From Candidatus Limnocylindrales bacterium (GTDB taxonomy: Bacteria > Chloroflexota > Limnocylindria > Limnocylindrales > CSP1-4): 49,031 nucleotides of DNA. This document shows, piece after piece, positions 4,369 to 22,036 of the stretch; positions within the stretch are counted from its first letter, which is position 1, and each line of letters begins with the position of its first letter. The translations under genes were made by a program, and so were the position numbers. The notes beneath the pieces were generated by a model. It saw only the letters and a program-made list of their open reading frames with translations, did not search any database and was not told the origin of the DNA. The DNA lies in assembly GCA_036277775.1 (NCBI GenBank), contig DASUMJ010000217.1, positions 1-49,031 on the forward strand, read 5' to 3'.

Positions 4369-5168
4369 ACGCGGCCACCGTGCCCCGCGGGATCGGCGTG
4401 ACGCTGGCCGACGGCCGCTTCGTCGTGACGGGTGCCTCGAGCGGACTTGGCGCGGCGATCGTCCGGCACCTCGCCCTCCTCGGCGCACCGATCGTGGCAG
4501 CGGCACGCCGGATCGACCGGCTGGAGGCCCTCGCGGCGGAGCTCGAGGCGGCCCCCGGTCGGGTCGTCCCGGTGCGGGCCGACGTCACCGACGAGGACGA
4601 CGTGGCGGCGCTCATCGAGGCGGCAGTGAAGGCCCTCGGCGGCATCGATGTCCTCGTGAACAACGCCGGCAGCGAGGTCCAGGGCCCGATCGACACGCTG
4701 CCGGACGAGGCCTTCGAGGGCATGCTGAGGGCGAACGTCCTGAGCATCGTGCGCGTGACGCGGGCCGCCCTCCCGGCGCTCCGCGAATCCCGCGGGATGG
4801 TCGTCAATCTCGGCTCGACGGTCGTCAGCCGCCCTCCTCGCAACCGCTTCGGCTACGTCGCGAGCAAGGGTGCGGTCGAGGCGATGAGCCGGGCCCTCGC
4901 GCTCGACCTCGGCCGGGAAGGCATCCGGGTCAACGTCATCCGGCCCGGGATCATCCCGTCCGAGCTCCGGGGCCTGTCCGAGGACGAGGAGCGGGCTCGT
5001 TTCGCGACCGGGGTCGCGTTCGGACGGCAGGCCCTGTCGGTGGTCGGGGATGGTCGTGACGTCGCCGAGGCAGTGGCATGGCTCGCCGGACCGGGCGGGC
5101 GCTGGATCACGGGGGCCGTGATCGACGTGGACGGGGGCTACGTGCTTGGGGCGGCTGACGCGATCTGA
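4365..5168 (+). CDS. SDR family oxidoreductase
   Basis: The GTG start overlaps the upstream stop (GTGA at 4365-4368). Motifs are 'VVTGASSGLGAAIVRHL', 'NNAG' and the YxxxK 'YVASKGAVEAM'. Confidence 0.9.
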   Translation: MNAATVPRGIGVTLADGRFVVTGASSGLGAAIVRHLALLGAPIVAAARRIDRLEALAAELEAAPGRVVPVRADVTDEDDVAALIEAAVKALGGIDVLVNNAGSEVQGPIDTLPDEAFEGMLRANVLSIVRVTRAALPALRESRGMVVNLGSTVVSRPPRNRFGYVASKGAVEAMSRALALDLGREGIRVNVIRPGIIPSELRGLSEDEERARFATGVAFGRQALSVVGDGRDVAEAVAWLAGPGGRWITGAVIDVDGGYVLGAADAI

Positions 5169-5210
5169 CCCTCGGGGGTGTCGGGCGCGGCCTCGAGCCG
5201 TGCGGCAGGG

Positions 5211-6266
5211 TCAGTCCGGGGCGACGATGATCTTGATGGCGCCGCTGCCTCGGTCGTTGAACGTGCTGAGGGCCTCCTGGTAGGCCGACAGCGGGAAGCG
5301 ATGGGTGATGACCTCGTTGACCCGGATCCGCCCCTGCTCCACGAGGGGCATGACGCGGCGCATCTCGCCGGCCGTCGCCCGTGATCCGACGAGCTCCAGC
5401 TCGTCGAGGACGAGCCGCTGCAGTGCGATCTCCACACCGCTGGTCGGGATGCCGACGGCAGCGCAGCGGCCGCCCCGGCGGAGCATGCGGATCGCCCAGC
5501 CGATCGTCTCGGGCGTCCCGGCGCACTCAAGCACGACGTCCGCCCCGACACCGGTCAGCTCCCGAACGGCTTGGACCGGGTCGCCGTCGGCAGTGTCCAC
5601 GGTCTCGGAGCCCATGGCGGCCGCCTTGGCAAGTCGCCCGCCACGGCCGACGACGATGACCCGTGCGGCACCCCGGACGCGGGCGGCGTCGGCTCCGAGC
5701 AGTCCGATCGCACCAGCGCCGGTGATGGCGACGGTGTCGCCCGGGGAGATCCCGCCGCGGTTCGCGACGTGGAGGGCGATCGACGCCGGGTCGACGACCG
5801 CGCCGGCCTCGAAGCTCAGGCCATCGGGGAGCCGGAAGATCGTCTTGATCCCCTGGACGACGTACGTCGCGTCGGCGCCCTGGACGGTGTGGCCGTACTG
5901 CTTGTGGAGTCCCGCCACCCCGTAGTTCTCGCAGAGGTTGTAGCGGCCCTCGACGCACTTCTGACAGGCGCCGCAGGCGTCGTGGCTGGTGCCCGCCACG
6001 CGGTCGCCCACCCGCCACCCGTACCGGTCGGCGCCGGGACCCAGCTCGACGAGCTCGCCGGCCCACTCGTGGCCCGGGGTGAACGGGAAGGCCGGCGGCC
6101 AGAAGCCCGGGTAGTCGCCGCGGATGAGATGGGCGTCGGTGCCGCAGATCGAGACCGCCCGGACCCGGGCTCGGACCTCGTTGAACCCGGGGCTCGGTAC
6201 CGGGACTTCCCGGATCTCGAAGCGGTTCGGCTCGAGGACGACGAGCGCCTCCATGGTCTCGGGCAC
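5211..6266 (-). CDS. Zinc-dependent alcohol dehydrogenase (MDR family, sorbitol/threonine-DH-like)
   Basis: It has the catalytic Zn motif 'GHEWAGELVELG', the structural Zn cysteines 'CGACQKCVEGRYNLC', and the Rossmann motif 'ITGAGAIGLLG'. Confidence 0.93.
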   Translation of the reverse strand: MPETMEALVVLEPNRFEIREVPVPSPGFNEVRARVRAVSICGTDAHLIRGDYPGFWPPAFPFTPGHEWAGELVELGPGADRYGWRVGDRVAGTSHDACGACQKCVEGRYNLCENYGVAGLHKQYGHTVQGADATYVVQGIKTIFRLPDGLSFEAGAVVDPASIALHVANRGGISPGDTVAITGAGAIGLLGADAARVRGAARVIVVGRGGRLAKAAAMGSETVDTADGDPVQAVRELTGVGADVVLECAGTPETIGWAIRMLRRGGRCAAVGIPTSGVEIALQRLVLDELELVGSRATAGEMRRVMPLVEQGRIRVNEVITHRFPLSAYQEALSTFNDRGSGAIKIIVAPD

Positions 6267-6281
6267 GGGCCGGCCTCCTCC

Positions 6282-7169
6282 TCAGACGACGGCGACGGGG
6301 TCGACCATCGACCCGGTCGCGCCGCGGATCTTCACGGGCAGGGCGACGAACAGGAACTCGTAAAGTCGCTGGCTTGCGAGCGCCTCGAGGTCGAGGCTCT
6401 CGAGCAGGTAGATCCCGTTCTCGATGAGCAGCAGCGTGTGGACCGGCTGGGGGTTGCCGGTGGGGCCGGGATCCGGGGCCGGCTGGACCTCGTAGGTCTC
6501 GGTGTCCGTCCCGGTCGCGACGATCCCGCGTTCCAGGAGCCAGCGCGCGGCGGAGATGTCCGGGCCGGGCGTCCGGTGGGCGGCCATCCGCTCGGCGTCG
6601 GGCCACAGCGACATGTAGCCGGTCCGGATGACCACGACGTCCCATGGCCGGACCTCGACACCTTCCGCGTCCGCGATCGCCTCCAGCTCCGCCGCGTCGA
6701 TCGGGGCGCCCCTCGGCAGGCAGGCCAGGCCCCGGTGGCCCGCCGCGTCGAGGAGCACGCCCCGGGTGAAGAACGGCGGCAGCGTCGAGGCGTCGAGGTG
6801 GTTCGGGCCGAAGTCCGTCAGGTGGTCGTCTGCCCGTCCCCCGCCGAACCAGTGCATGTCCTCGCCGACGGTCATGTGGGCGAGCGCGTCGACGTGAGCG
6901 CCGGAGTGGGACGTCGCCATGACGTACTCGGCCATGTAGCCGAGACCCGCGTCGTTGACTGGTCCCCATGGGCGGGCGCCGGTGACGCGGATGCCGCGCG
7001 GGGTCCGGGCGTTGAGGACCTGGAACGGCGGGTGCCCGGGGAAGAGCGGCATGCCGGGGAACCGCGCCGCGGCGAGCGAGATCGTCCGGCCCTCGCGGAC
7101 GAGACCCGCGGCGCGCACGACCTGGTCGGCGGGGAGTCGGCCGATCGGGCCGATGTCCGGGGCGGTCAT
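6282..7169 (-). CDS. Cyclase family protein (kynurenine formamidase / isatin hydrolase-like metal amidohydrolase)
   Basis: It has the HxGxHxDxxxH motif 'HSGAHVDALAHM'. The start overlaps the stop of the Mo subunit gene (ATGA at 7166-7169). Confidence 0.88.
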   Translation of the reverse strand: MTAPDIGPIGRLPADQVVRAAGLVREGRTISLAAARFPGMPLFPGHPPFQVLNARTPRGIRVTGARPWGPVNDAGLGYMAEYVMATSHSGAHVDALAHMTVGEDMHWFGGGRADDHLTDFGPNHLDASTLPPFFTRGVLLDAAGHRGLACLPRGAPIDAAELEAIADAEGVEVRPWDVVVIRTGYMSLWPDAERMAAHRTPGPDISAARWLLERGIVATGTDTETYEVQPAPDPGPTGNPQPVHTLLLIENGIYLLESLDLEALASQRLYEFLFVALPVKIRGATGSMVDPVAVV

Positions 7170-9457
7170 GCGTCGTCCTCCGTGTGCTCCTCCGACCCGG
7201 ACGCGGCGCCGGAGTCGTCCCGATCGCGCTCCCGGAGTGCCCGCCAGACGCGCTCCGGCGTCAGCGGCAGGTCACGAATCCTGATCCCCGCTGCATCACG
7301 GACCGCGCCTGCCACGGCGGCCGAGACGCACAGCAGCGCGCCCTCGCTCATGCCCTTGGAGCCGTACGGCCCGGGGCCATCCTCGTTCTCGACGAAGTCA
7401 CTCACCATCTCGACGGGCAGGTCCATGCTCGTGGGAATGCGATAGTCGATCGCCCCGAGGTTCCGGATCCGGCCGGCGTCGTCGAGGATGTAGTGCTCCA
7501 TCAGGGTGTGTCCCAGGCCCTGGATCGCGGCGCCCTCGTCCTGCATCCGGACCTGCAGCGGGTTGATCGCCTTGCCCACGTCGGACACCGTCACGTGGCG
7601 GGTGAGCGTCACGTCGCCGGTCGCCTCGTCGACCTCGGCCTCGATGGCCGTGCAGTTGAACTCGAAGAACGCCGGTGCCCCGCCGAGCGGGTGTTCCGGC
7701 GCGGCGTCGAGCCGTGTCTCGCCGACCCCGATGAGCTCCCCGCCGAGCCGGCCCAGGCCGGGCCCGAGGAGCTCGCGGATCGGGATCTCCCGATCGGGCA
7801 GGACGGCGACACCTCGCTCAACCCGGATCGCCGCCTCGTCCACGCCGTGGACCCGGGCGGCGATCGCCCGGAGCCGCGCCTGAATGTCGCGGCAGGCGGC
7901 AAGGACGGCATTGCCCATCAGGACCGTGGAGCGGCTGGCCGAGGTCTGCTGGTCGTACGGAACGACCGCCGTGTCGCCCATGACGACCGTCACCCAGTCC
8001 AGCGGCGCGCCGAGCTCGTCGCCGGCGATCTGGGCGAGGACCGTCCGGGCACCCTGGCCCATGTCGGAGGTCCCGGCGTAGACCACGACGCTGCCGTCGG
8101 CGAGCAGCCGGACGGTCGAGTACGAGAGGCCCGTCGTGGGGCCGGACTTGATGCCGACGGCGATCCCGCGGCCGCGGCCGCGAACCGCGGGCCGGTCCCA
8201 GCCCACGAGCTCGGCGGCCCGCCGGACCACCTGCGCCCAGTCGCCGTCGGCCGGCGTGTCCCAGGGAATGAACGCCTCCCCCTTCCGGGCGAGGTTCATG
8301 AGCCGGATCTCCAGCCGATCGATGCCGAGACGGAGGGCGGCCTCGTCGAGGTTCGACTCGACCGCCCAGTTGACCTGGGGGTTGCCGAATCCACGGAAGG
8401 CCGTGGACGGCACGGTGTGGGACAGGATCGGCCGGGCGACGACCCGCGCGGACGGCATCCGGTAGGGCCCCGCGGCAAGGTAGCTGCCCTTGCCCACGAC
8501 CCGGTCGGCGATGTCGACGTACGCCCCGATGAGGTAGTCGGCCCTGACGTCCTGGAAGCAGAGGGTGCCGTCGAGCCTGAGGCCCGTGCGGACGTGGACC
8601 TCGGCCGCCGCGCGGCGGACGGCCAGGAACGTCTCCTCGAGGCTCAGCACGAGCCGGACCGGCCGGCCGGCCCGGAGGGCCATGAGCGCGACGAGCGGCT
8701 CGTACTTGGCGTGCTGCTTGCCGCCGAAGCCGCCGCCTGGGTCAGGGGCGAAGACACGGACCCGCGAGAGCGGCAGGCCGGTCAGCCCGGCGATGATCCG
8801 CTGCAGCCAATTCGGGTGCTGGATCGTGCTCCAGACGGCGATCCCGCCGTCGTCCGGCGCCGCGATGAAGGCGTGCGGCTCGATCGCGAAGTGGGTCACC
8901 ATCGGGAACGTCCAGGTCCCCTCGACGACGACGTCGGCCGGCGTCGAGTCGACGTCGCCCCAGCCGACCCGGTGTTCGCGGAGCACGTTCGTCCCGGCGA
9001 GCGGGTCGCCCGGTCGCAGGGACGGATCCTGGACGAGCGGCGCGCCGGGGGCGAGGGCCGCGGCGACGCTCGTCACCGCCGGCAGCTCCTCGTAACGGAC
9101 CGTCACGAGCGCGGCCGCGGCCTCCGCCGCGTCGCGGGACTCGGCGGCCACGGCCGCAACCGGTTGCCCGTGGTAGGTGATCTCGCCGTCGGCGAGGACG
9201 GGCCGGTCCCGGTACTGGGGCCCGAACCGCGGCATCGGTGCGGGCAGGTCGGCCGCGCTCATCACGAGGTGGACACCCGGCACCGCCCGGGCTGCAGCCG
9301 CGTCGATCCCGAGCACCCGTGCGTGGGCGACGGGAAGCGTGACGAGCTTCGCGTGGAGCTCGCCTGGGAGGTGGATGTCAGCGACGTACGCCTGGCCGCC
9401 CGTCACCCGGCCGATGCCGCCGACTCGGTTCGGCGAGCCTCCGACGCGGGCCGTCAT
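7166..9457 (-). CDS. Xanthine dehydrogenase family, molybdopterin-binding large subunit
   Basis: 763 aa. The N-terminus 'NRVGGIGRVTGGQAYVADI' is typical of aldehyde oxidase/XDH a/b hammerhead domains. The three-subunit gene order is conserved, and the start overlaps the FeS subunit stop (ATGA at 9454-9457). Confidence 0.93.
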   Translation of the reverse strand: MTARVGGSPNRVGGIGRVTGGQAYVADIHLPGELHAKLVTLPVAHARVLGIDAAAARAVPGVHLVMSAADLPAPMPRFGPQYRDRPVLADGEITYHGQPVAAVAAESRDAAEAAAALVTVRYEELPAVTSVAAALAPGAPLVQDPSLRPGDPLAGTNVLREHRVGWGDVDSTPADVVVEGTWTFPMVTHFAIEPHAFIAAPDDGGIAVWSTIQHPNWLQRIIAGLTGLPLSRVRVFAPDPGGGFGGKQHAKYEPLVALMALRAGRPVRLVLSLEETFLAVRRAAAEVHVRTGLRLDGTLCFQDVRADYLIGAYVDIADRVVGKGSYLAAGPYRMPSARVVARPILSHTVPSTAFRGFGNPQVNWAVESNLDEAALRLGIDRLEIRLMNLARKGEAFIPWDTPADGDWAQVVRRAAELVGWDRPAVRGRGRGIAVGIKSGPTTGLSYSTVRLLADGSVVVYAGTSDMGQGARTVLAQIAGDELGAPLDWVTVVMGDTAVVPYDQQTSASRSTVLMGNAVLAACRDIQARLRAIAARVHGVDEAAIRVERGVAVLPDREIPIRELLGPGLGRLGGELIGVGETRLDAAPEHPLGGAPAFFEFNCTAIEAEVDEATGDVTLTRHVTVSDVGKAINPLQVRMQDEGAAIQGLGHTLMEHYILDDAGRIRNLGAIDYRIPTSMDLPVEMVSDFVENEDGPGPYGSKGMSEGALLCVSAAVAGAVRDAAGIRIRDLPLTPERVWRALRERDRDDSGAASGSEEHTEDDA

Positions 9458-9984
9458 CGGGCTGCGTCCGGATCGCTGGCCGGCCCGTTTAGGAGCGTGT
9501 CATCAGCATGCCCGGCGGCGGCCAGCACGGCGCCCACGATCTGCTCGTAGCCGGCGCAGCGACAGAGATTGCCGGCGAGGCCCTCCTGGACCTCCGCGAC
9601 CGTCGGGTCGGCGATCCGGTCGAGGAGGTCCTGGGCCGCCATCAGTTGCCCAGGGATGCAGAAACCGCATTGGGCCGCGCCGCGGTCGAGGAAGGCCTGC
9701 TGAAGCCGGCTCAGCCTGGCCCCGTCCGCCAGGCCCTCGACCGTCGTCACGCTTCCGCCGTCGGCCTCGACCGCGAGGACGAGGCACGAGTCCACGATCC
9801 GGCCGTCCAGGCTGACGGTGCAGGCCCCGCACTCTCCGACGAGGCAGCACTCCTTCGTTCCGGTCAAGGCGAGATCGTCGCGGAGGACCTCAAGGAGCGT
9901 ATGGTGGGCGGCCACTTCGACGGCCCGACCCCGGCCGTTGACCGTCAGCTCGATCGCCACGCGGGTTTCTCCGGGCGCCGTCAC
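9454..9984 (-). CDS. (2Fe-2S)-binding small subunit of the Mo-hydroxylase
   Basis: Trimmed to the GTG at 9984, which overlaps the FAD subunit stop (GTGA). Two 2Fe-2S motifs are present: 'CLVGECGACTV' and 'CGFCIPG...CRCAGY'. Confidence 0.93.
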   Translation of the reverse strand: MTAPGETRVAIELTVNGRGRAVEVAAHHTLLEVLRDDLALTGTKECCLVGECGACTVSLDGRIVDSCLVLAVEADGGSVTTVEGLADGARLSRLQQAFLDRGAAQCGFCIPGQLMAAQDLLDRIADPTVAEVQEGLAGNLCRCAGYEQIVGAVLAAAGHADDTLLNGPASDPDAAR

Positions 9985-10859
9985 GGCCGCGCCCCTCCCC
10001 CGCCCGCCGCGAGCCGCGCGACCGCGGTCGCGAGCGCCCGGCGCGCCAGGACCCCGAGCATCGCGAGGCGGTACTCGGGGCTTGCCCGCATCGATCGGGG
10101 CGAGGGGCTGGCTCCTGCGAGCAGCTGCTCGAGGACGACGTCGCGGGCGGCGGCCGTCGCCGTCGGATCGGCCAGCGTGCCGCTCGGGTCGACGCCGAGC
10201 ACCGGGCGGGGCCCGAGGCTGCCGTACGCAAGGCGCGTGACCCCGGCCCCGTCCACCGAGCAGGCGAGCGTGACCGAGGCGAGATCGTGGCCCCGCCGGC
10301 GGGTCCGGCGGACGTGCGTCGATCCGAGGGGGCCGGCGGGCAGCGGCAGCTCGATGCTCGTGACGAGCTCCCCGGGACGGAGGGTCGTCTCGCCGGATCG
10401 GACGAAGAGCTCGTCGATCGGGACCCGCCGCGCACCGTCCGGGCCCACCGCCACGATCTCGGCGCCGAAGACGAGAAGGGCCGGTGCAGTATCGGCGGCC
10501 GGCGAGGCGTTGCAGAGGTTCCCGGCCAGCGTCGCCCGGTTCCTGATCTGAACGGAGCCGACGACCATCGCCGCTTCGGCCAGGGCCGTGAACCGCTGCC
10601 GGATCCGCTCGTCCGCGCCGATGTCGGTCATGACCGCCGTCGCCGGCACCACGAGCCGACCGCCGATCTCGCGGATGGCCGGGTCGAGCTCCGGGATCCG
10701 CTTCAGGTCGACGACGACGGCCGCGCGGGCCGAGCCGTCGCGGAGGCGGATGATGAGATCCGTTCCGCCGGCCAGGACTCGGGCATCGGGCCCGTGGGTG
10801 GCGAGCAGCGCCACGGCCTCGGCGATGCTGGCGGGGCGGGCGTAGCTGAACGGTCGCAT
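9981..10859 (-). CDS. FAD-binding medium subunit of the Mo-hydroxylase (CoxM/XdhB-like)
   Basis: 'MRPFSYARPASIAEAVALL...RVLAGGTDLIIRLR' is a typical FAD_binding_5 N-terminus. The start shares 1 nt with the upstream gene's stop (TGATG at 10859). Confidence 0.9.
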   Translation of the reverse strand: MRPFSYARPASIAEAVALLATHGPDARVLAGGTDLIIRLRDGSARAAVVVDLKRIPELDPAIREIGGRLVVPATAVMTDIGADERIRQRFTALAEAAMVVGSVQIRNRATLAGNLCNASPAADTAPALLVFGAEIVAVGPDGARRVPIDELFVRSGETTLRPGELVTSIELPLPAGPLGSTHVRRTRRRGHDLASVTLACSVDGAGVTRLAYGSLGPRPVLGVDPSGTLADPTATAAARDVVLEQLLAGASPSPRSMRASPEYRLAMLGVLARRALATAVARLAAGGGGARP

Positions 10860-11761
10860 CAGCCGGCCGAGAGGACCTTCTCGACCTCGTCGAGCAGCAC
10901 CTGCGGCGTGGCCGCCCGGATGAAGAAGAACGGCCGCTCACAGAAGCGGGCGACGAACTCCGCCCGTCGCCGCCGGAGGGCGTCGGTGTCGAGGAGGGGC
11001 ATGACGTGGCCGGGGGCCAGCAGCTCGTTCGTCAGGAAGTAGTTCTGGAGGGAGTGCAGGAACTGGAACTGGGCCTCGAATGGGATGAGCCGGTTGGTGG
11101 CGGGGTCGAAGTTGCCATCGATGGCGGGCACGACCACGAGGTCGATCTCGGGCGTCCCGTCGTAGAAGCCCCAACTCGGCATGTCGCCCCAGAACTTCTC
11201 CACGCCTCGGTTCGGTGCGGCCTTGTCGGACCGCTCGGTCCCCTCCGTCCGCTTGACGAGGAACGGCTCGACCGAGCCCATGACGGCCCGTCCCGCCTCG
11301 TCGATCACGGTCGTCTCGGATGCGACCTGGAGGCCGCCCCGGAGCCCGGTCTCGATCAGGCCCATGCTCTTGCCGTGGTTGGACTCGCCGCCGAGGAAGA
11401 GGATCGTTCGGCCCTGGTAGTGGACCGCCGCGCTGTGCGATGGGTGCAGGCCCGCGGCCTCCATCCGAAGAGCCAGGACCGCCACGATCACCTTCTGGAT
11501 CGGGCCCGCCGGCCAGTCGCCGCTGAACCTCACGACCCCCGCGTCGTATGTGATGTCCTTCGGGCCGTCGACGAGCCACACGATGTCCGGCGTGGGAAGG
11601 GTCACCTCCGGGGAGATCCGGACGTCGGCAAGTCGGTAGTTGAGGAAGCTGAGGTCGTCGAGGACGTGGGCCCTCGGCGGCCCGCCGACGACGTCGACCC
11701 GGAGGCGGGCCGCGCCCGCCGAGAACTCTTCGGTGAGCTGGGGCTGGACCTGGGCGTTCAT
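10859..11761 (-). CDS. Hypothetical P-loop protein, HPr kinase/phosphorylase C-terminal-domain-like
   Basis: Start set to ATG 11761 (AAAGGAA RBS). 'ILFLGGESNHGKSMGLIETGLRGGLQVASETTVID' parallels the HprK Walker-A region (GxSGxGKSExALELxxRGHxLxADD). No other recognisable domain. Confidence 0.65.
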   Translation of the reverse strand: MNAQVQPQLTEEFSAGAARLRVDVVGGPPRAHVLDDLSFLNYRLADVRISPEVTLPTPDIVWLVDGPKDITYDAGVVRFSGDWPAGPIQKVIVAVLALRMEAAGLHPSHSAAVHYQGRTILFLGGESNHGKSMGLIETGLRGGLQVASETTVIDEAGRAVMGSVEPFLVKRTEGTERSDKAAPNRGVEKFWGDMPSWGFYDGTPEIDLVVVPAIDGNFDPATNRLIPFEAQFQFLHSLQNYFLTNELLAPGHVMPLLDTDALRRRRAEFVARFCERPFFFIRAATPQVLLDEVEKVLSAG

Positions 11762-11783
11762 CGATTCCTTTCGCGTGGTGCGG

Positions 11784-12527
11784 TCAGGCGGGCTGCCTGG
11801 TGAGCTGGGGCAGGGACGCCGCATCGCCGTCGCCGCGCGCGTCCGATGGGGGCGTTACGGCGTCGCCGGTCCGGCTGGTCGCCCAGTGGCGGGCGAGTCC
11901 CGCCGCCGCGTCCTGGAAATGGCGGACGATGACATCGGCCGCCCGGCCCGCCTCGCGGCGGCGAAGGGTCTCCAGGATCACGAGGTGGCCGTCGGCGATC
12001 TGCCGGCGATCGGCGCCGGAGGCGCCGATGGTGATGTAGGTGCGGGAGAACGGCTCCAGCGTCCGCCAGACGCGGACAAGCGTAGCGTTGCCGGCGGCCT
12101 CGACGATCCGCCCGTGGAACGCGGCATCCGCGGTGGCTTCCGCGTAGACGTCGCCCGCGTCGGCCGCGTCCTGCATCCGTCCGATATCGACGGCGAATGC
12201 CTCGAGGTCGTCGTCGCCGAGCCGGGGGATTGCCAGCTCGATCGCGAGCGACTCGAGCGCCGCGCGGACCGCGAAGGCCTCGAGGAGCTCGTCCGCCGAT
12301 GGGCGGCGGACGCGAGCTCCCCGAAATGCCGCGGTCACGACAAGGCCAAGACCCTCCAGGTCGCGGAGCGCCTCCCGGACCGGCGCCTGGCTCGTGCCGA
12401 GCTCCCGGGCGACCCGGGTCTCGACGATCCGGGCGCCCGGCGGGTAGCGGCCGTCGAGGATCGCCTGGAGGAGGCGGTCCTTGACCTGGTCGCTGAGGAC
12501 GCTCCGCGAAACAGCCTGGCGAGTCAT
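11784..12527 (-). CDS. GntR family transcriptional regulator (FadR-type, FCD effector domain)
   Basis: Trimmed to ATG 12527. The wHTH is 'RIVETRVARELGTSQAPVREALRDLEGLGLVV', followed by a helical C-terminal domain. The gene is embedded in the catabolic operon. Confidence 0.9.
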   Translation of the reverse strand: MTRQAVSRSVLSDQVKDRLLQAILDGRYPPGARIVETRVARELGTSQAPVREALRDLEGLGLVVTAAFRGARVRRPSADELLEAFAVRAALESLAIELAIPRLGDDDLEAFAVDIGRMQDAADAGDVYAEATADAAFHGRIVEAAGNATLVRVWRTLEPFSRTYITIGASGADRRQIADGHLVILETLRRREAGRAADVIVRHFQDAAAGLARHWATSRTGDAVTPPSDARGDGDAASLPQLTRQPA

Positions 12528-12537
12528 CGTCGCGACG

Positions 12538-14316
12538 TCAGTCGCGCATCCCGACCGGGGCCACCGTCGCCACGGCGGCAAGGATCTCGACGACCCCGGT
12601 GCTCCCGTCCACGCGGATCTTGTCGCCGGTCTTGATCCGTGTCGTCGCGACGGACGTGCCGACGACGGCCGGGATTCCGTACTCGCGGGCCAGGACGGCC
12701 GGGTGCGAGACGGTTCCGCCGGCGTCCGTGACGACCGCCGTGATCTTCCCGTACAGAACCTGCCAGGCCGGGTTCGTCATCTCGCAGACGAGGACCTCGC
12801 CGACCTGGAGGCTGTCGAACTCGGCCTCGGACATGACGACGCGGGCCGTGCCCTCGACGACGCCGGGCGAGCCGGCGATGCCCTTGACCTTGCCGAACTC
12901 CTGTTCCTTCGAGCGGTAGAACTTGTCCGGGAAGCCCCACAGGTTCAGGTACGGGAAGGCGAGCTGGGTGGCGGTCACGGTTCCGACCCAGTCCTTCGGC
13001 CGGATCTTCTCGGCCTCGGCCCGCTTGGCCCGGGCTGCGGCCACGATCGCCCGGCCGTCGATGCCGGTCGGGTTGCCGATGAAGGCCCGCAGCTCGTTGT
13101 AGTGGAAGAGGATCACGTCGTCCGGGCGATCGAGAACGCCCATCTCGACGAGCTTCTCGCCGATGGCCATGAGGACGAGCCGGACGTGGGCGTTGGCGCC
13201 CTGGTCGATGTAGAAGTGATGATCCGGGGTGAGCGGGGCCATCTTCAGGTTGATCTCGTTGGCCGCACGCATCTCCTCGAGCGCCTCGCCCTCGAGACCC
13301 TCGAGGATCTCGACCGAGGCCGCGTCGATGTCGGCCTTGAGCTTCGCGACTGCAGCCGGGTAGTCGTAGCCCGACGCGTACTGATCGCGGACGAGCTGGA
13401 CGACCGGGGTCATGTCCTCCCGGAAGCTCGGGAAGATGAACTCGTGGCTCCAGACGGCGTGCCAGCCGAACTCCTTCTGGTACGGCACGACCCGCTCGTC
13501 GATGAACCGCCGCCCACGCTCGCTCGCCTGGAGCCGCGGGACGATCTCGGTCGCGGACGGGCTGTCGAAGGCCTTCGCCAGCTCGGCGTCGCCGCGGACC
13601 TCCTCCTGCATCTGCCAGAGGGACCGGATCTTGTCCCAGTTGCGGTCGTTGGCCGAGCTCTGGAGCCGGCCCAGCAGGACCTCGTCGATCTTGCCGTGGG
13701 TCTTCTCCATGACCGCCCGGAGGTTGAGCGTCGCGCTGAGCTGCGCGAAGTTCAGCATCCAGTGGATCTTCCAGTGGCGGTCGTGCATGTCGATGGCGTC
13801 CTCGAGGAGGACGGCCGTGTCGGCCAGGCTGAGCTCGGCCTTCTTGTCGAGCATGCCCTCGATGTAGTCGAAGTTCCGCTGCATCTCGGGCACGAACCGC
13901 GTCCGCCACCAGTGGACGAAGTTGTGGCCGTAGACGGGCAGGACCGCGCCCAGGTACGCCCCGATCTTGCCTGCGTAGCCGGCGTCGTCGCCCTGGGGAA
14001 CGATCGCGCGCGTCGCCAGGTCGTACTCCTGCGTCACGAGCTCGAGCCCGGCTTCGGCCGGGATCGCCGCGGTGTACAGGTAGCCGTTGATCTTCTTGTA
14101 GATCCAGTCCGTCGCGAACGGCGTCCCGAAGCGGCGGAACATGTGGTCGCAGGACAGCCACCAGCCGCCGATGTCCTCGTACATCGGGCTGAGCGGCTTC
14201 GGGCAGTGGAGGTCGTCGTAGACCCAGAAGAGCAACTTCTCGGTCTCCGACGTCCAGGCGATGGGGAATTCCTCGGTCCCGAGGTACTGGTCGAGGATCT
14301 CTTCCTTCAATGGCAC
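12538..14316 (-). CDS. PEP-utilising-enzyme family protein: large helical N-terminal domain plus C-terminal phosphohistidine swivel domain (PpsA / rifampin-phosphotransferase-like, no ATP-grasp)
   Basis: Start set to GTG 14316 (GAAGGAG 9 nt upstream). The C-terminal 'GSPGVVEGTARVV...VLVCEMTNPAW...TDAGGTVSHPAVLAREYGIPAVVG' is the mobile His domain. The N-terminal ~480 aa have no nucleotide-binding motif. Confidence 0.85.
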   Translation of the reverse strand: MPLKEEILDQYLGTEEFPIAWTSETEKLLFWVYDDLHCPKPLSPMYEDIGGWWLSCDHMFRRFGTPFATDWIYKKINGYLYTAAIPAEAGLELVTQEYDLATRAIVPQGDDAGYAGKIGAYLGAVLPVYGHNFVHWWRTRFVPEMQRNFDYIEGMLDKKAELSLADTAVLLEDAIDMHDRHWKIHWMLNFAQLSATLNLRAVMEKTHGKIDEVLLGRLQSSANDRNWDKIRSLWQMQEEVRGDAELAKAFDSPSATEIVPRLQASERGRRFIDERVVPYQKEFGWHAVWSHEFIFPSFREDMTPVVQLVRDQYASGYDYPAAVAKLKADIDAASVEILEGLEGEALEEMRAANEINLKMAPLTPDHHFYIDQGANAHVRLVLMAIGEKLVEMGVLDRPDDVILFHYNELRAFIGNPTGIDGRAIVAAARAKRAEAEKIRPKDWVGTVTATQLAFPYLNLWGFPDKFYRSKEQEFGKVKGIAGSPGVVEGTARVVMSEAEFDSLQVGEVLVCEMTNPAWQVLYGKITAVVTDAGGTVSHPAVLAREYGIPAVVGTSVATTRIKTGDKIRVDGSTGVVEILAAVATVAPVGMRD

Positions 14317-14419
14317 CGCAGTCTTCTCCTTCGGCTCGTGGCTCGCGTCGCCGGCCGGGCGACGTCTTCCGGCTCGTCCCTCGTCCGCGGCCCTGGCCGC
14401 GGCCCGCATCCGCCTCCCT

Positions 14420-15676
14420 TCAGCACCTCCCGGCCACGGCCGCCGGCAGGGGTTCGGCCCACACGCGATAGAGGTCGTCGAGGCGCTCGGCCATCGCGCG
14501 CCCGAACGCCGGGTCGTTGATATCGGTGGCCACCTCGACCACCTCGATGCCCGGGCGAAGCCCTGCCTTCAACTCCCGGGTCAGGGCTGCGTCGGCAGCC
14601 GGATCGTGGAACGGCCGCCCGGGGGCATCGAGCATCGACAGCCCGTCGCCTGGGACGAACACGACCAGCGGGCCGGTCGCCTCGTTCAGCTTCCGGGCCA
14701 GCACGCGACCGAGCTCCGCGCACTCCGCCTCGCTGGTCCGCATGAGCGTGACCGCGGCGTTGTGCTCCACGAGGGTGCGGCCGCGGAACCGGCGCGGGAC
14801 GGTGTCGAGCGGCCCGAAGTTCACCATGTCGAGGGCGCCGAGAGATACCACCTGCGGCAGTCCGAGTGTGCCGGCCGCTTCGAGCCGGTCGGGGCCGGCG
14901 GAGCAGACCCCGCCGACGAGGTCGTCGGCCAGCTCGCTCGTGGTCACGTCGAGGACACCGGTAATGACGCCTGAACGGATGAGGTCCTCCATGGCGCGTC
15001 CGCCCGTGCCGGTCGCATGGAAGACGAGGACCTCGTAGCCGCGCGACTCGAGGACCTCGCGGGCGGCGGTCACGCAGGGTGTCGTCACGCCGAACATCGT
15101 CGCCCCGATGCATGGTCGGCCGTCGGGTCGGTCGTCGGCTCGCGAGGCTTGCCGGGCCATGCCGGCGGTGGCGGCGGCAGCGTTGGCGAGGACCCGGCGC
15201 GAAATTCGGTTGAGCCCGGCGATGTCGACGATCGAGTGCATGAGCGTGACGTCACTCGTGCCGACATACGGCCGCGTGTCGCCGGAGGCCATCGTCGAGA
15301 CGAGGAGCTTCGGGACACCGATCGGGAGGGCGCGCATGGCCGCGGCCACGAGCGCGGTGCCGCCGGAGCCGCCGAGCCCGGCGATGGCGTCGAGTCGGCC
15401 TTCAGCATGGAGCTGCCGGACGACCTCGATCGCACCGCGTGTCATCGACGCAATCGCGTGCCCCCGGTCGCCGCCGGCAGCGAGGGCGGTCCGGTCGGCC
15501 CCGCCGGCGGCTGCCACGACGTCCGACGAGACGTCCGCAAGCGATGACGGTTCGAGGACACCCGCGTCCACGAGGATGGTGTCGCATCCGGCCCTGCGAA
15601 CCTCGTCCCGCACGAAGCGGAACTCGGGACCCTTGGTATCGAGCGTGCCCAGGAGGACGACCGTGGCCACGTGCAT
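14420..15676 (-). CDS. UPF0261 / Tm-1-like ATP-binding domain protein
   Basis: 'MHVATVVLLGTLDTKGPEFRFVRDEV' matches the family N-terminus (GTxDTKG). An alternative GTG start at 15670 lies 6 nt after GGAG. The 817-aa ORF in the track is an artefactual extension that runs antisense through the transaldolase gene. Confidence 0.85.
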   Translation of the reverse strand: MHVATVVLLGTLDTKGPEFRFVRDEVRRAGCDTILVDAGVLEPSSLADVSSDVVAAAGGADRTALAAGGDRGHAIASMTRGAIEVVRQLHAEGRLDAIAGLGGSGGTALVAAAMRALPIGVPKLLVSTMASGDTRPYVGTSDVTLMHSIVDIAGLNRISRRVLANAAAATAGMARQASRADDRPDGRPCIGATMFGVTTPCVTAAREVLESRGYEVLVFHATGTGGRAMEDLIRSGVITGVLDVTTSELADDLVGGVCSAGPDRLEAAGTLGLPQVVSLGALDMVNFGPLDTVPRRFRGRTLVEHNAAVTLMRTSEAECAELGRVLARKLNEATGPLVVFVPGDGLSMLDAPGRPFHDPAADAALTRELKAGLRPGIEVVEVATDINDPAFGRAMAERLDDLYRVWAEPLPAAVAGRC

Positions 15677-15700
15677 CTCCAGCTCGCCACGGGACGCACA

Positions 15701-15750
15701 TCGATAATCGATTGTCGATGACAGTAGCCCCGATGCCGGGGACGCGTCAA
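15701..15750 (-). promoter_or_regulatory. Promoter plus operator box B for the minus-strand nine-gene operon
   Basis: Read on the minus strand: TTGACG (15750-15745), 18-nt spacer, TACTGT (15726-15721), then the 18-bp near-palindrome TCGACAATCGATTATCGA (15718-15701), which has one mismatch. Confidence 0.65.
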
Positions 15751-15776
15751 GGCAGAATCGCGGGGCTCGCGCGGGC

Positions 15777-15806
15777 TTGCCACTGAACAATCGATGATCG
15801 ATGATA
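15777..15806 (+). promoter_or_regulatory. Promoter plus operator box C upstream of transaldolase
   Basis: TTGCCA (15777-15782) is followed by the box TCGATGATCGATGATA (15791-15806), which overlaps the expected -10 position. The box contains the 13-bp palindrome ATCGATgATCGAT. Confidence 0.55.
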
Positions 15807-15835
15807 CAAGGAACGATACCCCGGAGGTGACGGTC

Positions 15836-16933
15836 ATGGTGGTCGCGGCGGCGCTCGACAGCCCCCTCCTGCAGATGACCCAGGAGACGCGCACCCAGTA
15901 CTGGAACGACTCCTGCGCGGTGGACGAGCTCGCCTACGCCGTCGAGCGCGGGGCCACCGGTGCGACGTCGAACCCCAGCATCGTCCTCGAGGTCCTCCGG
16001 AAGGAGCGAGCGTACTGGGCCCGCCGCGTCGAGCAGCTCGCCGAAGCGGAGCCGACCGCCTCGGAGGTGGACCTCACCTGGGCAGTCGTCGAAGAGATGG
16101 CTGTGCGCGGCGCCGCCGTGCTCGGGCCGGTCCATGAGCGGACCAAGGGCAAGGCCGGCCGCCTCTCGCTGCAACTCAACCCTGCCAACCACCGCAACCC
16201 GAAACGGATGGTCGAGCAGGCCGTTCGATTCCACGGTCTCGCGCCGAACATGCAGGTGAAGTTCCCCTGCACGGCCGCGGGCATCGTCGGGATGGAGGAG
16301 GCGACGGCCCAGGGCATCAGCATCAACTCGACCGTCAGCTTCACGGTGCCCCAGGCGCTCGCCGCCGCGGAGGCTGTGGAGCGCGGCCTCACCCGTCGCG
16401 AGTCCGCCGGCCTCGACACGTCCTCGATGTCGCCGATCGTGACGATCATGATCGGCCGGCTCGACGACTGGTTGAAGGTCGTCGTGGAACGTGACCGCCT
16501 GTCCGTCCACCCCGACGCGGTGAACTGGGCCGGGATCGCGGCGTTCAAGCGGACGTATGCCCTCTTCCGCGAGCGGGGCTACCGATCCCGCTTGCTCGCG
16601 GCGGCCTATCGTCACCGGCTCCACTGGACCGAGCTCGTCGGCGGCGACGTGAGCTTGACGATGCCCCATGCCTGGCAGGTCCGGTTCAACGCCAGCGGCA
16701 TCCGGCCCGAGCCACGGATGGACGTCCCGGTCGACGCCGACCTCATCGAGGATCTCGAGCAGCGGATCCCCGACTTCCGTCGGGCCTACGAGCCCGATGG
16801 GCTGGCGCCCGAGGCGTTCGAAGGCTTCGGGGCGAGTGCCCGGACACTCCGCGCCTTCATTGCCGCCTATCACGACCTCCAGGGCGCGATCCGGGACCTG
16901 GTCCTCCCCGATCCCGACGCTCCGAGCCGCTGA
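15836..16933 (+). CDS. tal: Transaldolase family protein
   Basis: Start set to ATG 15836 (GGAGGTG 6 nt upstream). It has the 'GATGATSNPSIV' motif and the Schiff-base lysine context 'MQVKFPCTAAGI'. Confidence 0.9.
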   Translation: MVVAAALDSPLLQMTQETRTQYWNDSCAVDELAYAVERGATGATSNPSIVLEVLRKERAYWARRVEQLAEAEPTASEVDLTWAVVEEMAVRGAAVLGPVHERTKGKAGRLSLQLNPANHRNPKRMVEQAVRFHGLAPNMQVKFPCTAAGIVGMEEATAQGISINSTVSFTVPQALAAAEAVERGLTRRESAGLDTSSMSPIVTIMIGRLDDWLKVVVERDRLSVHPDAVNWAGIAAFKRTYALFRERGYRSRLLAAAYRHRLHWTELVGGDVSLTMPHAWQVRFNASGIRPEPRMDVPVDADLIEDLEQRIPDFRRAYEPDGLAPEAFEGFGASARTLRAFIAAYHDLQGAIRDLVLPDPDAPSR

Positions 16934-17091: not shown

Positions 17092-17205
17092 ATGACCAAC
17101 CGGCCAGTGTTCGATGGGGGCGACACGCGGAGCCCCATCGATCCCGCAGCGCCCTTGGCGGGCGGCGGGGAGAGGCCACGGCCACCGGTGCCGGCGGCCG
17201 GCTGA
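17092..17205 (+). CDS. Candidate 37-codon upstream ORF / leader peptide
   Basis: ATG 17092 has GGAGG 10 nt upstream. Its TGA stop overlaps the permease ATG (TGATG at 17203-17207). GC3 is high, but the peptide is Pro/Gly-rich and unrecognised. Confidence 0.3.
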   Translation: MTNRPVFDGGDTRSPIDPAAPLAGGGERPRPPVPAAG

Positions 17206-18077: not shown

Positions 18078-18081
18078 GCAG

Positions 18082-20525: not shown

Positions 20526-20564
20526 CGTACCGCGCAAGAGTTAGCAAGGATGAGGAGGAACGGA

Positions 20565-21959: not shown

Positions 21960-21989
21960 GGGCGGGCGACAGTCCGTCGACCTGATGAA

Positions 21990-22024: not shown

Positions 22025-22036
22025 CCATCCCGCCTC

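What the first reader, a model, noticed from the sequence alone, without database searches (positions are those of the whole stretch)
10859..11761. HPr-kinase-like P-loop protein translationally coupled to the Mo-hydroxylase genes
'LFLGGESNHGKSMGLIETGLRGGLQVASETTVID' aligns by eye with the HprK/P Walker-A and following strand (GxSGxGKSExxLELxxRGxxLxADD). HprK-like kinases are known for phosphorylating protein or peptide serines (HPr, lasso peptides), not for sitting inside xanthine-dehydrogenase-family operons. The usual accessory genes for such enzymes (XdhC, MocA/MobA, CoxDEF) are absent from the window. This gene's stop shares a base with the FAD subunit start. It could be a new maturation or regulatory factor for the hydroxylase, or a small-molecule kinase of the pathway.
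Basis: partly seen in the sequence, partly recalled or inferred. Interest (0 to 1): 0.65.

Follow-up and report, generated by a model that had tools for sequence, protein, structure and literature searches.

The report
Unannotated PEPCK/HprK-like kinase beside dikinase genes
The gene encodes a strongly conserved, never-annotated phosphate-transfer enzyme related to PEP carboxykinase and HPr kinase. It always travels with a two-part "dikinase" that phosphorylates small (probably phenolic) molecules, and usually, but not always, with a molybdenum enzyme, so it is probably a step of a breakdown pathway and not a helper of the molybdenum enzyme.

Summary
Window 10859-11761 (-) is a real 300-aa gene with an invariant Walker-A loop (GESNHGKS, residues 125-132). 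Its stop overlaps the FAD-subunit start (TGATG).

No Pfam, NCBIfam or PDB sequence hit exists for the protein itself. Two independent AlphaFold models (pLDDT 87 and 91.5) place it in the PEPCK/HprK P-loop superfamily. ATP-PEPCK is the best match (Foldseek E 1e-6 to 8e-8) and HprK/P is second (about 1e-4). Half of 28 relatives give sub-threshold PEPCK_ATP hits; only one gives a noise-level HprK_C hit.

Linkage to xanthine-dehydrogenase-family genes is real: all 80 close species-level loci and about two thirds of divergent loci. It is not universal. In at least three branches of the family the Mo enzyme is replaced by tungsten AFOR enzymes.

The constant partners are a PPDK_N ATP-grasp protein and an HpeH/PpsA-like swivel-histidine protein, which together form a two-component small-molecule dikinase.

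Best reading: a new family of Mg/Mn-dependent small-molecule phosphotransferases acting on a phosphorylated intermediate of a probably phenolic catabolic pathway. A regulatory protein-kinase role or a cofactor-maturation role is less likely. Function is untested.

The parts
10859..11761 (-). X: 300-aa P-loop protein, founding member of an unannotated family of the PEPCK/HprK superfamily
   Evidence: Translation. No Pfam, NCBIfam or PDB sequence hit. AF2 pLDDT 87, with Foldseek ranking PEPCK then HprK/P. Family conservation.
11366..11389 (-). Walker-A / P-loop codons, G125-S132 (GESNHGKS)
   Evidence: invariant G125, E126, N128, G130, K131. Aligns to E. coli Pck G248-T255.
11435..11521 (-). PEPCK-type motif G81-x-W-x-x-G86-x-x-Q89-K90 ... 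H109. K90 and H109 align with the Mn ligands K213 and H232 of E. coli PEPCK.
   Evidence: hhalign to E. coli Pck 197-264. hmmsearch to T. thermophilus PEPCK 177-239. The role of K213/H232 is from my own knowledge of PEPCK.
11766..11772 (-). Shine-Dalgarno-like GAAAGGA, 4 nt upstream of the ATG of X
10857..10861 (-). TGATG: stop of X overlaps the start of the FAD subunit by one base
9981..10859 (-). FAD-binding subunit of the XDH-family enzyme
   Evidence: FAD_binding_5 and CO_deh_flav_C.
9454..9984 (-). [2Fe-2S] subunit
   Evidence: Fer2 and Fer2_2; GTG start found.
7166..9457 (-). Molybdopterin subunit; best solved relative is 4-hydroxybenzoyl-CoA reductase alpha
   Evidence: Pfam; 1rm6_A at E 1.4e-93.
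6282..7169 (-). Cyclase-family (PF04199) metal hydrolase
   Evidence: The family includes dihydrophloroglucinol cyclohydrolase (PMC10470551).
5211..6266 (-). Zn-dependent alcohol dehydrogenase
11784..12527 (-). GntR/FCD regulator (probable ATG at 12527), 22 nt upstream of X
12538..14409 (-). HpeH/PpsA-like protein: unknown N-terminal 530 aa plus a C-terminal swivel phospho-histidine domain (GGTVSHPAVLAR)
   Evidence: PEP-utilizers domain. Best PDB relative is rifampin phosphotransferase 5fbs. Relatives carry Rph_4th. His motif.
14420..15676 (-). UPF0261 protein (family of the aromatic kinase MarK)
   Evidence: PMC12624787.
2179..4368 (+). PPDK_N ATP-grasp + swivel domain + unknown 275-aa C-terminal region. 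This is the ATP-grasp partner of the dikinase, convergent with the operon.
   Evidence: Conserved at the end of the cluster in relatives.
15794..16933 (+). Transaldolase/FSA-family gene, conserved neighbour

Best explanation
X is a catalytically competent, divalent-metal-dependent P-loop phosphotransferase. It belongs to a new family that lies between ATP-PEP carboxykinase and HPr kinase/phosphorylase.

It is a fixed component of a catabolic gene set built around a two-component small-molecule dikinase. That dikinase consists of an HpeI/PpsB-like PPDK_N ATP-grasp protein and an HpeH/PpsA-like swivel-His protein. The other members are a dehydrogenase, a GntR/FCD regulator and a pterin-dependent oxidoreductase. 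The oxidoreductase is an XDH-family Mo enzyme here and a tungsten AFOR in anaerobic relatives.

Most likely X binds an adenine nucleotide in its P-loop and a small phosphorylated or enolisable pathway intermediate between its two domains, as PEPCK does. It would then move the phosphoryl group between the two. It would thus carry out the phosphate-handling step (removal or recycling of the phosphate tag put on by the dikinase) that HAD phosphatases perform in the Cre, Hpe and Acv pathways.

Shown: the fold class, the invariant catalytic-type residues and the gene linkage.
Inferred: a small-molecule substrate, the direction of transfer and a phenolic pathway substrate.
For: Fold. Two independent AF2 models, of X and of a 55%-identical relative (pLDDT 87 and 91.5), give ATP-PEPCK as the top 35 PDB matches. 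These span nearly the whole length (about 340-375 columns, TMq 0.41-0.49, E 1e-6 to 8e-8). HprK/P comes next (E 7e-5 to 1e-3, TMq 0.23-0.30).

Sequence.
- A family profile hits T. thermophilus PEPCK (E 0.004) and hits no HprK.
- 14 of 28 relatives hit Pfam PEPCK_ATP, with a best score of 25.5 bits against a cut-off of 26.5.
- hhalign puts GDWPAGPIQK/H109/GESNHGKS on E. coli GTWYGGEMKK/H232/GLSGTGKT.

Enzyme-like conservation.
- 37 invariant columns include eight Arg and the P-loop. Invariant polar residues (R21, D23, Y42) sit in the N-terminal domain.
- Across 80 species, median identity is 81.7% for X. It is 71-77% for the three Mo-enzyme subunits and 64% for the regulator.

Linkage.
- PPDK_N is present in 16/16 divergent loci with >=5 kb flanks. 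It is the immediate neighbour in 31 of 80 loci. The gap to PPDK_N is about 11 nt in L084 and L089, and there is a 4-nt overlap in L095.
- The oxidoreductase partner changes family several times.

No conserved phosphatase. None appears in the Pfam-annotated loci. Characterised dikinase pathways have one, for example HpeD (PMC9618137).

No regulatory target. The HpeH-like partners lack a conserved Ser/Thr at -2/-1 of the catalytic His.
Against: - There is no biochemical datum for any family member.
- The segment after the P-loop (helix, RG, strand ending in S-E) has the HprK/P spacing, not the PEPCK spacing. HprK/P is a protein kinase.
- PEPCK residues Y207 and K212 and the DD of kinase-2 are not conserved.
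- TM-scores to PEPCK are only about 0.45, with rmsd 8-10 A.
- Phosphate could instead leave in the Mo/W-enzyme reaction, or stay on a product that enters the transketolase/transaldolase steps. In either case no phosphate-removing enzyme is needed.
- The cluster already holds two other kinases (the dikinase and UPF0261).
Confidence: 0.45

Rival explanations
1. X is a protein Ser/Thr kinase/phosphorylase that regulates the phospho-histidine carrier of the dikinase (the HpeH-like swivel domain or the PPDK_N protein). The analogy is HprK/P acting on HPr, and PSRP/PDRP acting on PEP synthase/PPDK.
For: - Fold relation to HprK/P (prob 0.97-1.0).
- The helix/RG/acidic-strand spacing after the P-loop is identical to real HprK/P sequences.
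- Size and two-domain layout resemble HprK/P.
- X is constantly next to PPDK_N or swivel-domain genes.
- Regulation of phospho-His carriers by P-loop kinase/phosphorylases is an established theme (own knowledge; regulatory Thr in PEP synthase quoted in PMC12167813).
Against: - The regulatory Thr at -2 of the catalytic His is absent, and position -1 is Ser or Ala in the partners.
- There is no PF07475 or PF03618 hit.
- The HprK signature ExRGxGI is absent.
- The global fold and profile matches favour PEPCK.
- X is more conserved than the enzymes it would regulate.
Confidence: 0.2
2. X is a third component of the dikinase itself. It would be a stimulatory or gamma-phosphate-handling subunit (compare PpsC of phenylphosphate synthase), or an alternative acceptor-substrate module that receives phosphate from the swivel histidine.
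For: - Tight, repeatedly re-created adjacency to stand-alone PPDK_N genes in unrelated gene orders.
- Phenylphosphate synthase is known to have a third, stimulating protein (own knowledge).
- HpeH alone can shuttle phosphate between substrates (PMC12167813 abstract).
Against: - Characterised two-component dikinases (HpeHI, CreHI, AcvAB, 3hpd orf9/10) work without any X-like protein.
- No X homologue is found in 72,556 plasmids, a collection in which the Ensifer 3hpd cluster was not checked for.
- No gene fusion of X with either component was found. The apparent fusions are read-through artefacts.
Confidence: 0.15
3. X is a maturation, cofactor-insertion or regulatory factor of the molybdenum (or tungsten) pterin enzyme.
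For: - Stop/start overlap with the FAD subunit in the window.
- X lies directly upstream of the FAD subunit in nearly all 80 close loci (median gap 22 nt) and in 32 of 80 divergent loci.
- Every locus with >=8 kb flanks carries some Mo/W-pterin enzyme (8/8).
- No XdhC/MocA/CoxDEF is present in the window.
Against: - The partner enzyme belongs to different cofactor classes (XDH family, AFOR, sometimes a DMSO-reductase-family gene alongside). In AFOR-type loci X sits 4-5 genes away from AFOR and next to PPDK_N.
- Known maturation factors are specific to one enzyme family (own knowledge).
- There is no similarity to any known Moco chaperone.
- The PEPCK-type metal and substrate motif is unexplained by a chaperone role.
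Confidence: 0.1

Closest known systems
ATP-dependent phosphoenolpyruvate carboxykinase (PckA, Pfam PF01293)
   Same: - Best structural match for two independent models.
- Shared order of G-x-W-x-x-G-x-x-x-K, then His, then the Walker-A loop.
- Both have a two-domain layout with the nucleotide loop in the C-terminal part.
- PEPCK is a small-molecule phosphotransferase using Mg-nucleotide plus Mn (own knowledge).
   Different: - X is 300 aa against about 530-540 aa. Most of the PEPCK N-terminal domain and its insertions are missing.
- Y207 and K212 equivalents and the kinase-2 DD are not conserved.
- Pfam scores stay below the gathering threshold and cover only profile positions 160-225 of 465.
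- The gene context is catabolic, not gluconeogenic.
HPr kinase/phosphorylase (HprK/P, Pfam PF07475)
   Same: - Same superfamily fold (Foldseek prob about 1).
- The His-(21/22)-Lys spacing, and the helix + RG + strand ending in an acidic residue after the P-loop, line up residue for residue.
- Similar overall length.
   Different: - No PF07475 hit.
- Walker A is GExNxGK[ST], not GxSGxGKS.
- No ExRGxGI signature.
- The acidic pair DD is S/T-E.
- No HPr/PTS genes were found in the window.
- The global fold match is weaker than to PEPCK.
Two-component small-molecule (phenolic) dikinase pathways: PpsAB(C), CreHI, HpeHI, AcvAB, and orf9/orf10 of the 3-hydroxypyridine (3hpd) cluster
   Same: - The partners of X have the same architecture: a PPDK_N ATP-grasp protein and a substrate-binding + swivel-His protein related to rifampin phosphotransferase (PMC12167813).
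- The 3hpd cluster already shows an XDH-family Mo hydroxylase that needs such a dikinase in vivo (bioRxiv 10.1101/2020.01.08.898148).
   Different: - None of these described systems is reported to contain an X-like P-loop protein. They end with a hydrolytic phosphatase, such as HpeD of the NagD/HAD type (PMC9618137).
- Here no conserved phosphatase is present and X is constant.
PEP synthase / PPDK regulatory proteins (PSRP/PDRP, DUF299, PF03618)
   Same: Conceptual analogue for the regulatory rival: a P-loop kinase/phosphorylase acting next to a swivel phospho-histidine (own knowledge).
   Different: - No sequence relation was detected (no Pfam hit at E<=10).
- The target Thr is not conserved in the partner proteins.

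Membership tests
HPr kinase/phosphorylase (HprK/P) | Significant match to Pfam Hpr_kinase_C (PF07475) | tested here: not met
   No hit at E<=10 for X. 1 of 28 relatives hits, at E=0.25. No HprK chain at E<=10 with family profiles.
HPr kinase/phosphorylase (HprK/P) | Walker A of the type GxSGxGKS followed by E-x-x-L-E-L-x-x-R-G and a strand ending in DD | tested here: inconclusive
   X has GESNHGKS-M-x-L-I-E-x-x-x-R-G ... A-S-E in the same register. The Ser/Gly of the loop and the DD pair are replaced, and the pairwise score is only z about 3.
HPr kinase/phosphorylase (HprK/P) | HprK signature E-x-R-G-x-G-[IV] (central loop) | tested here: not met
   No regex match in X. The motif is visible in L. 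casei HprK as LEIRGLGII.
HPr kinase/phosphorylase (HprK/P) | Fold of the C-terminal catalytic domain | tested here: met
   1ko7, 1knx, 1kkl and 1jb1 at E 7e-5 to 7e-3, prob 0.89-1.0. This is superfamily level only.
HPr kinase/phosphorylase (HprK/P) | Phosphorylates Ser46 of HPr; occurs with PTS genes | not testable with these tools
   No PTS or HPr family was found among the window ORFs scanned. The rest of the genome is not available.
ATP-dependent PEP carboxykinase | Pfam PEPCK_ATP (PF01293) above the gathering score, over the full profile | tested here: not met
   No hit for X. Relatives reach 24-25.5 bits against a cut-off of 26.5, over profile positions 160-225 of 465 only.
ATP-dependent PEP carboxykinase | PEPCK-specific motif (GTxYxGExKK), Mn-ligand His, and the kinase-1a P-loop in the same order and spacing | tested here: met
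   hhalign X 74-141 = Pck 197-264 (E 1.8e-4, prob 48%). hmmsearch to 1j3b at E 0.004. K90 (K or R) and H109 are conserved. The Y207 and K212 equivalents are not.
ATP-dependent PEP carboxykinase | Kinase-2 motif with the Asp-Asp metal ligands 14-15 residues after the P-loop Lys | tested here: not met
   X has S148-E149 at +17/+18 (HprK spacing) and no [LIV][LIV]GDD.
ATP-dependent PEP carboxykinase | About 530-aa two-domain enzyme with a full N-terminal OAA/PEP-binding domain (R65, R333) | tested here: not met
   X and all full-length relatives are 293-315 aa. Equivalents of R65 and R333 could not be assigned.
ATP-dependent PEP carboxykinase | Overall fold | tested here: met
   Top 35 PDB hits for both models, about 340-375 aligned columns, TMq 0.41-0.49. 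The rmsd is high (8-10 A), so the relation is distant.
PSRP/PDRP (DUF299) regulators of PEP-utilising enzymes | Pfam Kinase-PPPase (PF03618) match, and a conserved target Thr two residues before the catalytic His of the partner | tested here: not met
   No Pfam hit. Partners read GG[TLVIF][VLA][SA]HP.
Mo-hydroxylase accessory proteins (XdhC/CoxI, MocA, CoxD/E/F) | Sequence membership of one of these families | tested here: not met
   No Pfam or NCBIfam hit for X.
Mo-hydroxylase accessory proteins (XdhC/CoxI, MocA, CoxD/E/F) | Strict co-occurrence with XDH-family enzymes | tested here: not met
   AFOR-only loci make up 4/16 (>=5 kb flanks) and 3/8 (>=8 kb flanks). The partner switch occurs in >=3 branches of the X family.

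The most novel reading that the evidence does not exclude
X closes a "phosphate-tag cycle". The dikinase spends ATP to phosphorylate a phenolic or enolic hydroxyl. The Mo/W enzyme and the dehydrogenase transform the tagged compound. X then works like PEPCK or pyruvate kinase run on an aryl/enol phosphate. It would return the phosphoryl group to ADP, possibly coupled to a tautomerisation or a (de)carboxylation. Phosphate would then be recovered as ATP instead of being hydrolysed as in the Cre/Hpe/Acv pathways. This would be a new enzyme activity. It would also explain why Mo hydroxylases such as HpdA depend on a dikinase.
Probability: 0.12. Interest if true: 0.8.

Novelty: new variant of a known kind. 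Interest (0 to 1): 0.55.

Why it matters
- Two-component phenolic dikinases are a recently recognised enzyme class. Why catabolism starts with phosphorylation, and why a Mo hydroxylase (HpdA) needs such a dikinase, are stated open questions (PMC12167813; bioRxiv 10.1101/2020.01.08.898148).
- X is an unannotated and very strongly conserved enzyme-like protein. It is the constant companion of these dikinases in hundreds of soil and sediment Chloroflexota (Limnocylindrales) and in some archaea (Nitrososphaerales, Bathyarchaeia).
- Assigning its activity would define a new family in the PEPCK/HprK superfamily that bridges its two known branches.
- It would also help decode a widespread, uncharacterised and probably polyphenol-degrading pathway in uncultured soil bacteria.
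- It gives a directly testable handle: three or four soluble proteins to express and reconstitute.

Tried and rejected
1. Direct annotation. Pfam, NCBIfam and PDB sequence searches of X gave nothing, even at E<=10.
2. Rosetta-stone fusions. Longer proteins containing X segments (P0127, P0222, P0229, P0253) carry pieces of the neighbouring FCD, FAD, FeS or Mo genes in genomic order. They are frameshift or read-through artefacts, not fusions. P0139, P0160, P0172 and P0179 had no Pfam domain.
3. Cultured or annotated homologues. tblastn against 72,556 plasmids found none. All named database members are "hypothetical protein" from MAGs.
4. Literature. Searches for PEPCK-like or HprK-like proteins found no paper on this family. 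A search combining HPr kinase, pyruvate phosphate dikinase, regulatory protein and P-loop returned no paper.
5. Transcription. Only short contigs (150-190 nt, 0-3 mismatches, depth 2-4) from RNA-labelled metagenome libraries lie on X. This is compatible with expression, but DNA carry-over cannot be excluded. No contig spans a gene junction.
6. Promoter and terminator scan of 4200-16200. One promoter-like and one terminator-like match, within chance expectation.
7. Pairwise alignment to HprK or Pck fragments. The register is correct but z is only about 3, so it was not used as evidence of homology on its own.
8. Cofactor-maturation reading. Rejected as the main explanation because the partner oxidoreductase changes family.
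9. Electron-transfer ATPase reading. Rejected because no Cys is invariant in the family.
Full report
**1. The observation**

- Window 10859-11761 (-) is an uninterrupted 300-codon ORF. GAAAGGA lies 4 nt before the ATG.
- Third-position GC is 0.92, like the neighbouring genes.
- The stop and the ATG of the next gene share a base: CCGGCTGATGCG.
- The quoted peptide is residues 121-154. GESNHGKS (125-132) is the only Walker-A match. Only 91 of 20000 shuffles of the protein contain one.
- In 28 relatives down to 36% identity, the P-loop (G125, E126, N128, G130, K131), M133, E137, R141, E149 and 28 further columns are invariant.
- So the feature is real and is not a chance match.

**2. The surroundings in the window**

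X sits in a nine-gene, same-strand array with gaps of -4 to 22 nt:

| Gene | Coordinates (-) |
|---|---|
| UPF0261 | 15676-14420 |
| Swivel-histidine (PEP-utilizers) protein, 623 aa | 14409-12538 |
| GntR/FCD regulator | 12527-11784 |
| X | 11761-10859 |
| FAD subunit | 10859-9981 |
| 2Fe-2S subunit | 9984-9454 |
| Mo subunit | 9457-7166 |
| Cyclase-family hydrolase | 7169-6282 |
| Zn-ADH | 6266-5211 |

- Convergent with the array is a PPDK_N ATP-grasp + swivel-domain gene (2179-4368 +).
- Upstream lie a transaldolase-family gene, a branched-chain-type ABC transporter, a split transketolase and an E1/E2 2-oxoacid-dehydrogenase-like set.
- No XdhC, MocA/MobA or CoxDEF family was found among the ORFs scanned.

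**3. What X is**

Sequence searches:
- Pfam, NCBIfam and PDB sequence searches of X give nothing, even at E<=10.
- The family is large but narrow. More than 2700 clusters at 90% identity were found, almost all 80-92% identical, from Chloroflexota/Limnocylindrales MAGs, and all named "hypothetical protein".
- Only 176 representatives exist at 50% identity, and most are fragments.
- Divergent full-length members (36-56% identity) come from Nitrososphaerales, Bathyarchaeia and unassigned metagenome contigs.

Structure:
- An AlphaFold2 model of X has pLDDT 87.2 and pTM 0.87.
- An independent model of the 55%-identical P0294 has pLDDT 91.5 and pTM 0.89.
- Both give the same Foldseek ranking against PDB. 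About 35 ATP-dependent PEPCK structures come first (E 8e-8 to 1e-5, roughly 340-375 aligned columns, TMq 0.41-0.49). HprK/P comes next (E 7e-5 to 7e-3, TMq 0.22-0.30). GTP-PEPCKs follow.

Profile evidence:
- A family profile finds T. thermophilus PEPCK at E 0.004, and finds no HprK at E<=10.
- 14 of 28 members hit Pfam PEPCK_ATP (best 25.5 bits, cut-off 26.5). Only one hits Hpr_kinase_C, at E 0.25.
- hhalign aligns X 74-141 with E. coli Pck 197-264. This puts G81-D-W-P-A-G-P-I-Q-K90 on GTWYGGEMKK, H109 on H232, and GESNHGKS on GLSGTGKT.
- From my own knowledge of PEPCK, K213 and H232 are Mn ligands and K254/T255 are the P-loop Lys and the Mg ligand.

The HprK-like part:
- After the P-loop, X follows the HprK/P pattern, not the PEPCK pattern.
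- Against real HprK sequences recovered from PDB, the helix (E137), R141-G142 and the strand ending in S148-E149 fall at exactly the positions of E, RG and DD.

Conclusion: X founds an unannotated family inside the PEPCK/HprK P-loop superfamily, with features of both branches. It fails the membership tests for either family.

**4. Linkage**

Close relatives:
- In one genome per GTDB species, 457 stretches encode a relative.
- In the 80 best loci (71-88% identity) the order is conserved: HpeH-like, GntR, X, FAD, FeS, Mo, (cyclase, ADH), PPDK_N-swivel.
- X is among the most conserved genes of the set. Median identity is 81.7% for X, 83.8% for the cyclase, 80.1% for the ADH, 78.6% for the HpeH-like protein, 76.7% for Mo, 73.9% for FeS, 71.4% for FAD and 64.1% for GntR.

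Divergent relatives are more informative:
- In a Nitrososphaerales MAG, FAD, FeS, HpeH-like and Mo form one operon. SCP2, X and PPDK_N form the divergent one.
- In L095 the order is HpeH-like, GntR, cyclase, PPDK_N, X, with the Mo-enzyme genes on the other strand.
- In L093 the order is PPDK_N, X, FAD, FeS, Mo.
- In L089/L090 and L092 there is no XDH-family gene at all. Tungsten-type AFOR genes are present instead, plus a DMSO-reductase-family gene in L092. X lies next to or near PPDK_N.

Counts over 80 further metagenome loci:

| Flank on both sides | n | PPDK_N | HpeH-like | XDH family | AFOR without XDH |
|---|---|---|---|---|---|
| >=5 kb | 16 | 16 | 13 | 11 | 4 |
| >=8 kb | 8 | 8 | 8 | 5 | 3 |

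- The genes lying within 300 nt of X over these 80 loci are GntR (37), FAD (32) and PPDK_N (31).
- In a clustering of X sequences, AFOR-type loci fall in at least three separate groups and XDH-type loci in four.
- The invariant partner of X is thus the PPDK_N / swivel-His pair. The pterin oxidoreductase is interchangeable.

**5. What the partners are**

- The 623-aa protein's best solved relative is rifampin phosphotransferase (5fbs, E 1e-25). Its relatives carry the Rph_4th domain.
- Together with a PPDK_N ATP-grasp protein, this is the architecture of the two-component phenolic dikinases PpsAB, CreHI, HpeHI and AcvAB (PMC12167813; PMC9618137).
- A precedent for coupling to an XDH-family enzyme exists. 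3-Hydroxypyridine dehydrogenase HpdA of Ensifer adhaerens needs a PEP-utilising protein and a PPDK-like protein in vivo, for unknown reasons (bioRxiv 10.1101/2020.01.08.898148).
- UPF0261 is the family of the aromatic kinase MarK (PMC12624787).
- The cyclase family includes dihydrophloroglucinol cyclohydrolase, which works with an SDR ring reductase (PMC10470551).
- The Mo subunit is closest to 4-hydroxybenzoyl-CoA reductase (1rm6, E 1e-93).
- Taken together, and as inference only, the cluster looks like a catabolic pathway for a phenolic compound that is phosphorylated early.

**6. How X most likely works**

Shown:
- A PEPCK/HprK-type nucleotide loop.
- Conserved equivalents of the PEPCK metal ligands.
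- An N-terminal domain with invariant polar residues (R21, D23, Y42).
- Eight invariant arginines.
- An invariant but flexibly modelled loop, R171-x-x-G-T-E-R-x-D179 (pLDDT 60-66), which could be lid-like.

Inferred:
- X is a Mg/Mn-dependent phosphotransferase with a small-molecule substrate bound between its domains. It transfers phosphate between an adenine nucleotide and a pathway intermediate.
- Characterised dikinase pathways end with a hydrolytic phosphatase such as HpeD. No phosphatase family is conserved in the eight Pfam-annotated X loci.
- The most economical role for X is therefore the phosphate-handling step. I give this 0.45.

**7. Rivals**

- (a) An HprK/P- or PSRP-like protein kinase that regulates the swivel-His carrier (0.2). 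This is supported by the HprK-like segment and the adjacency. It is weakened by the lack of a conserved Ser/Thr next to the catalytic His (GG[TLVIF][VLA][SA]HP), by the better PEPCK match, and by the very high conservation of X.
- (b) A third subunit of the dikinase (0.15). It is weakened because known dikinases work without such a protein.
- (c) A maturation or regulatory factor of the Mo/W enzyme (0.1). Every well-flanked locus does contain some pterin enzyme. However, the enzyme family and cofactor type change, and X tracks PPDK_N instead.
- The remainder is unknown.

**8. Novelty and verdict**

- The protein family is unannotated, and I found no literature on it.
- It is a new family of a known superfamily, in a new but partly precedented context (a dikinase plus a Mo hydroxylase).
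- The finding is real. Its "Mo-hydroxylase factor" idea is the less likely of its two options.
- Interest is moderate to high for specialists in aromatic catabolism and in P-loop kinase evolution. The function remains untested.

Noticed in passing
window 2179-4368 (+): The ATP-grasp partner is a 729-aa fusion here: PPDK_N, then a second swivel-His domain (GGLASHAAVVAR), then a 275-aa C-terminal region with no Pfam match. Other lineages have a stand-alone PPDK_N protein of 273-353 aa. The Limnocylindrales cluster therefore carries two swivel domains.
   Followed up: partly
window 7166-9457 (-): The best solved relative of the Mo subunit is 4-hydroxybenzoyl-CoA reductase alpha (318 bits). That is a reductive dehydroxylase, and it scores well above quinoline oxidoreductase (254 bits) and the CO dehydrogenases. 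In relatives the enzyme is replaced by AFOR-family genes. This hints at aldehyde or aromatic reduction chemistry instead of N-heterocycle hydroxylation.
   Followed up: partly
L084 4015-9521 (Nitrososphaerales MAG): The HpeH-like swivel-His gene lies inside the Mo-enzyme operon, between the 2Fe-2S and Mo subunit genes. This suggests that the dikinase and the Mo enzyme act on the same (phosphorylated) substrate, or even associate physically.
   Followed up: no
window 14420-15676 (-), 6282-7169 (-), 350-1201 (+): A UPF0261 (MarK-like aromatic kinase family) gene, a cyclase-family hydrolase and an SDR recur with X in many loci. An SDR plus a cyclase-family enzyme is the phloroglucinol reductase / dihydrophloroglucinol cyclohydrolase pair of anaerobic polyphenol degradation.
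   Followed up: partly
window 17205-30183: A branched-chain-type ABC transporter with a Peripla_BP_6 binding protein, a small cupin, a split transketolase, a second GntR/FCD, a DeoR regulator and a fused E1 plus E2 of a 2-oxoacid/acetoin-dehydrogenase-like complex. The same E2-E1-transketolase block follows X in the AFOR-type loci (L089, L097, L140). The conserved unit may therefore be much larger than the operon.
   Followed up: partly
L079 (contig labelled Actinotalea sp. MAG); P0057 (labelled Deferrimicrobiaceae), P0120 (labelled Dormibacteraeota): Close relatives of X (71-85% identity) sit in bins assigned to other phyla. L079 has a rearranged order (X, cyclase, ADH, FAD, FeS, Mo) and much more divergent Mo-enzyme genes (40-54%). 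This reflects either horizontal transfer or mis-binning.
   Followed up: no
window 31525-39136: A [NiFe] hydrogenase (small and large subunits plus cytochrome b) on the minus strand, followed by a phosphoketolase and acetate kinase pair on the plus strand.
   Followed up: no
window 44907-48221: An MttB-superfamily (trimethylamine methyltransferase-like) gene and a bacterial serpin gene lie next to each other.
   Followed up: no
window 11784-12581 (-): The mechanical ORF of the GntR gene starts at a TTG that overlaps the upstream gene by 44 nt. An ATG at 12527, 10 nt after the upstream stop, is the more likely start.
   Followed up: yes
window 10983-11541: Short contigs from four RNA-labelled environmental libraries match X with 0-3 mismatches at depth 2-4. 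This is a weak hint that the gene is transcribed in soils and sediments.
   Followed up: partly
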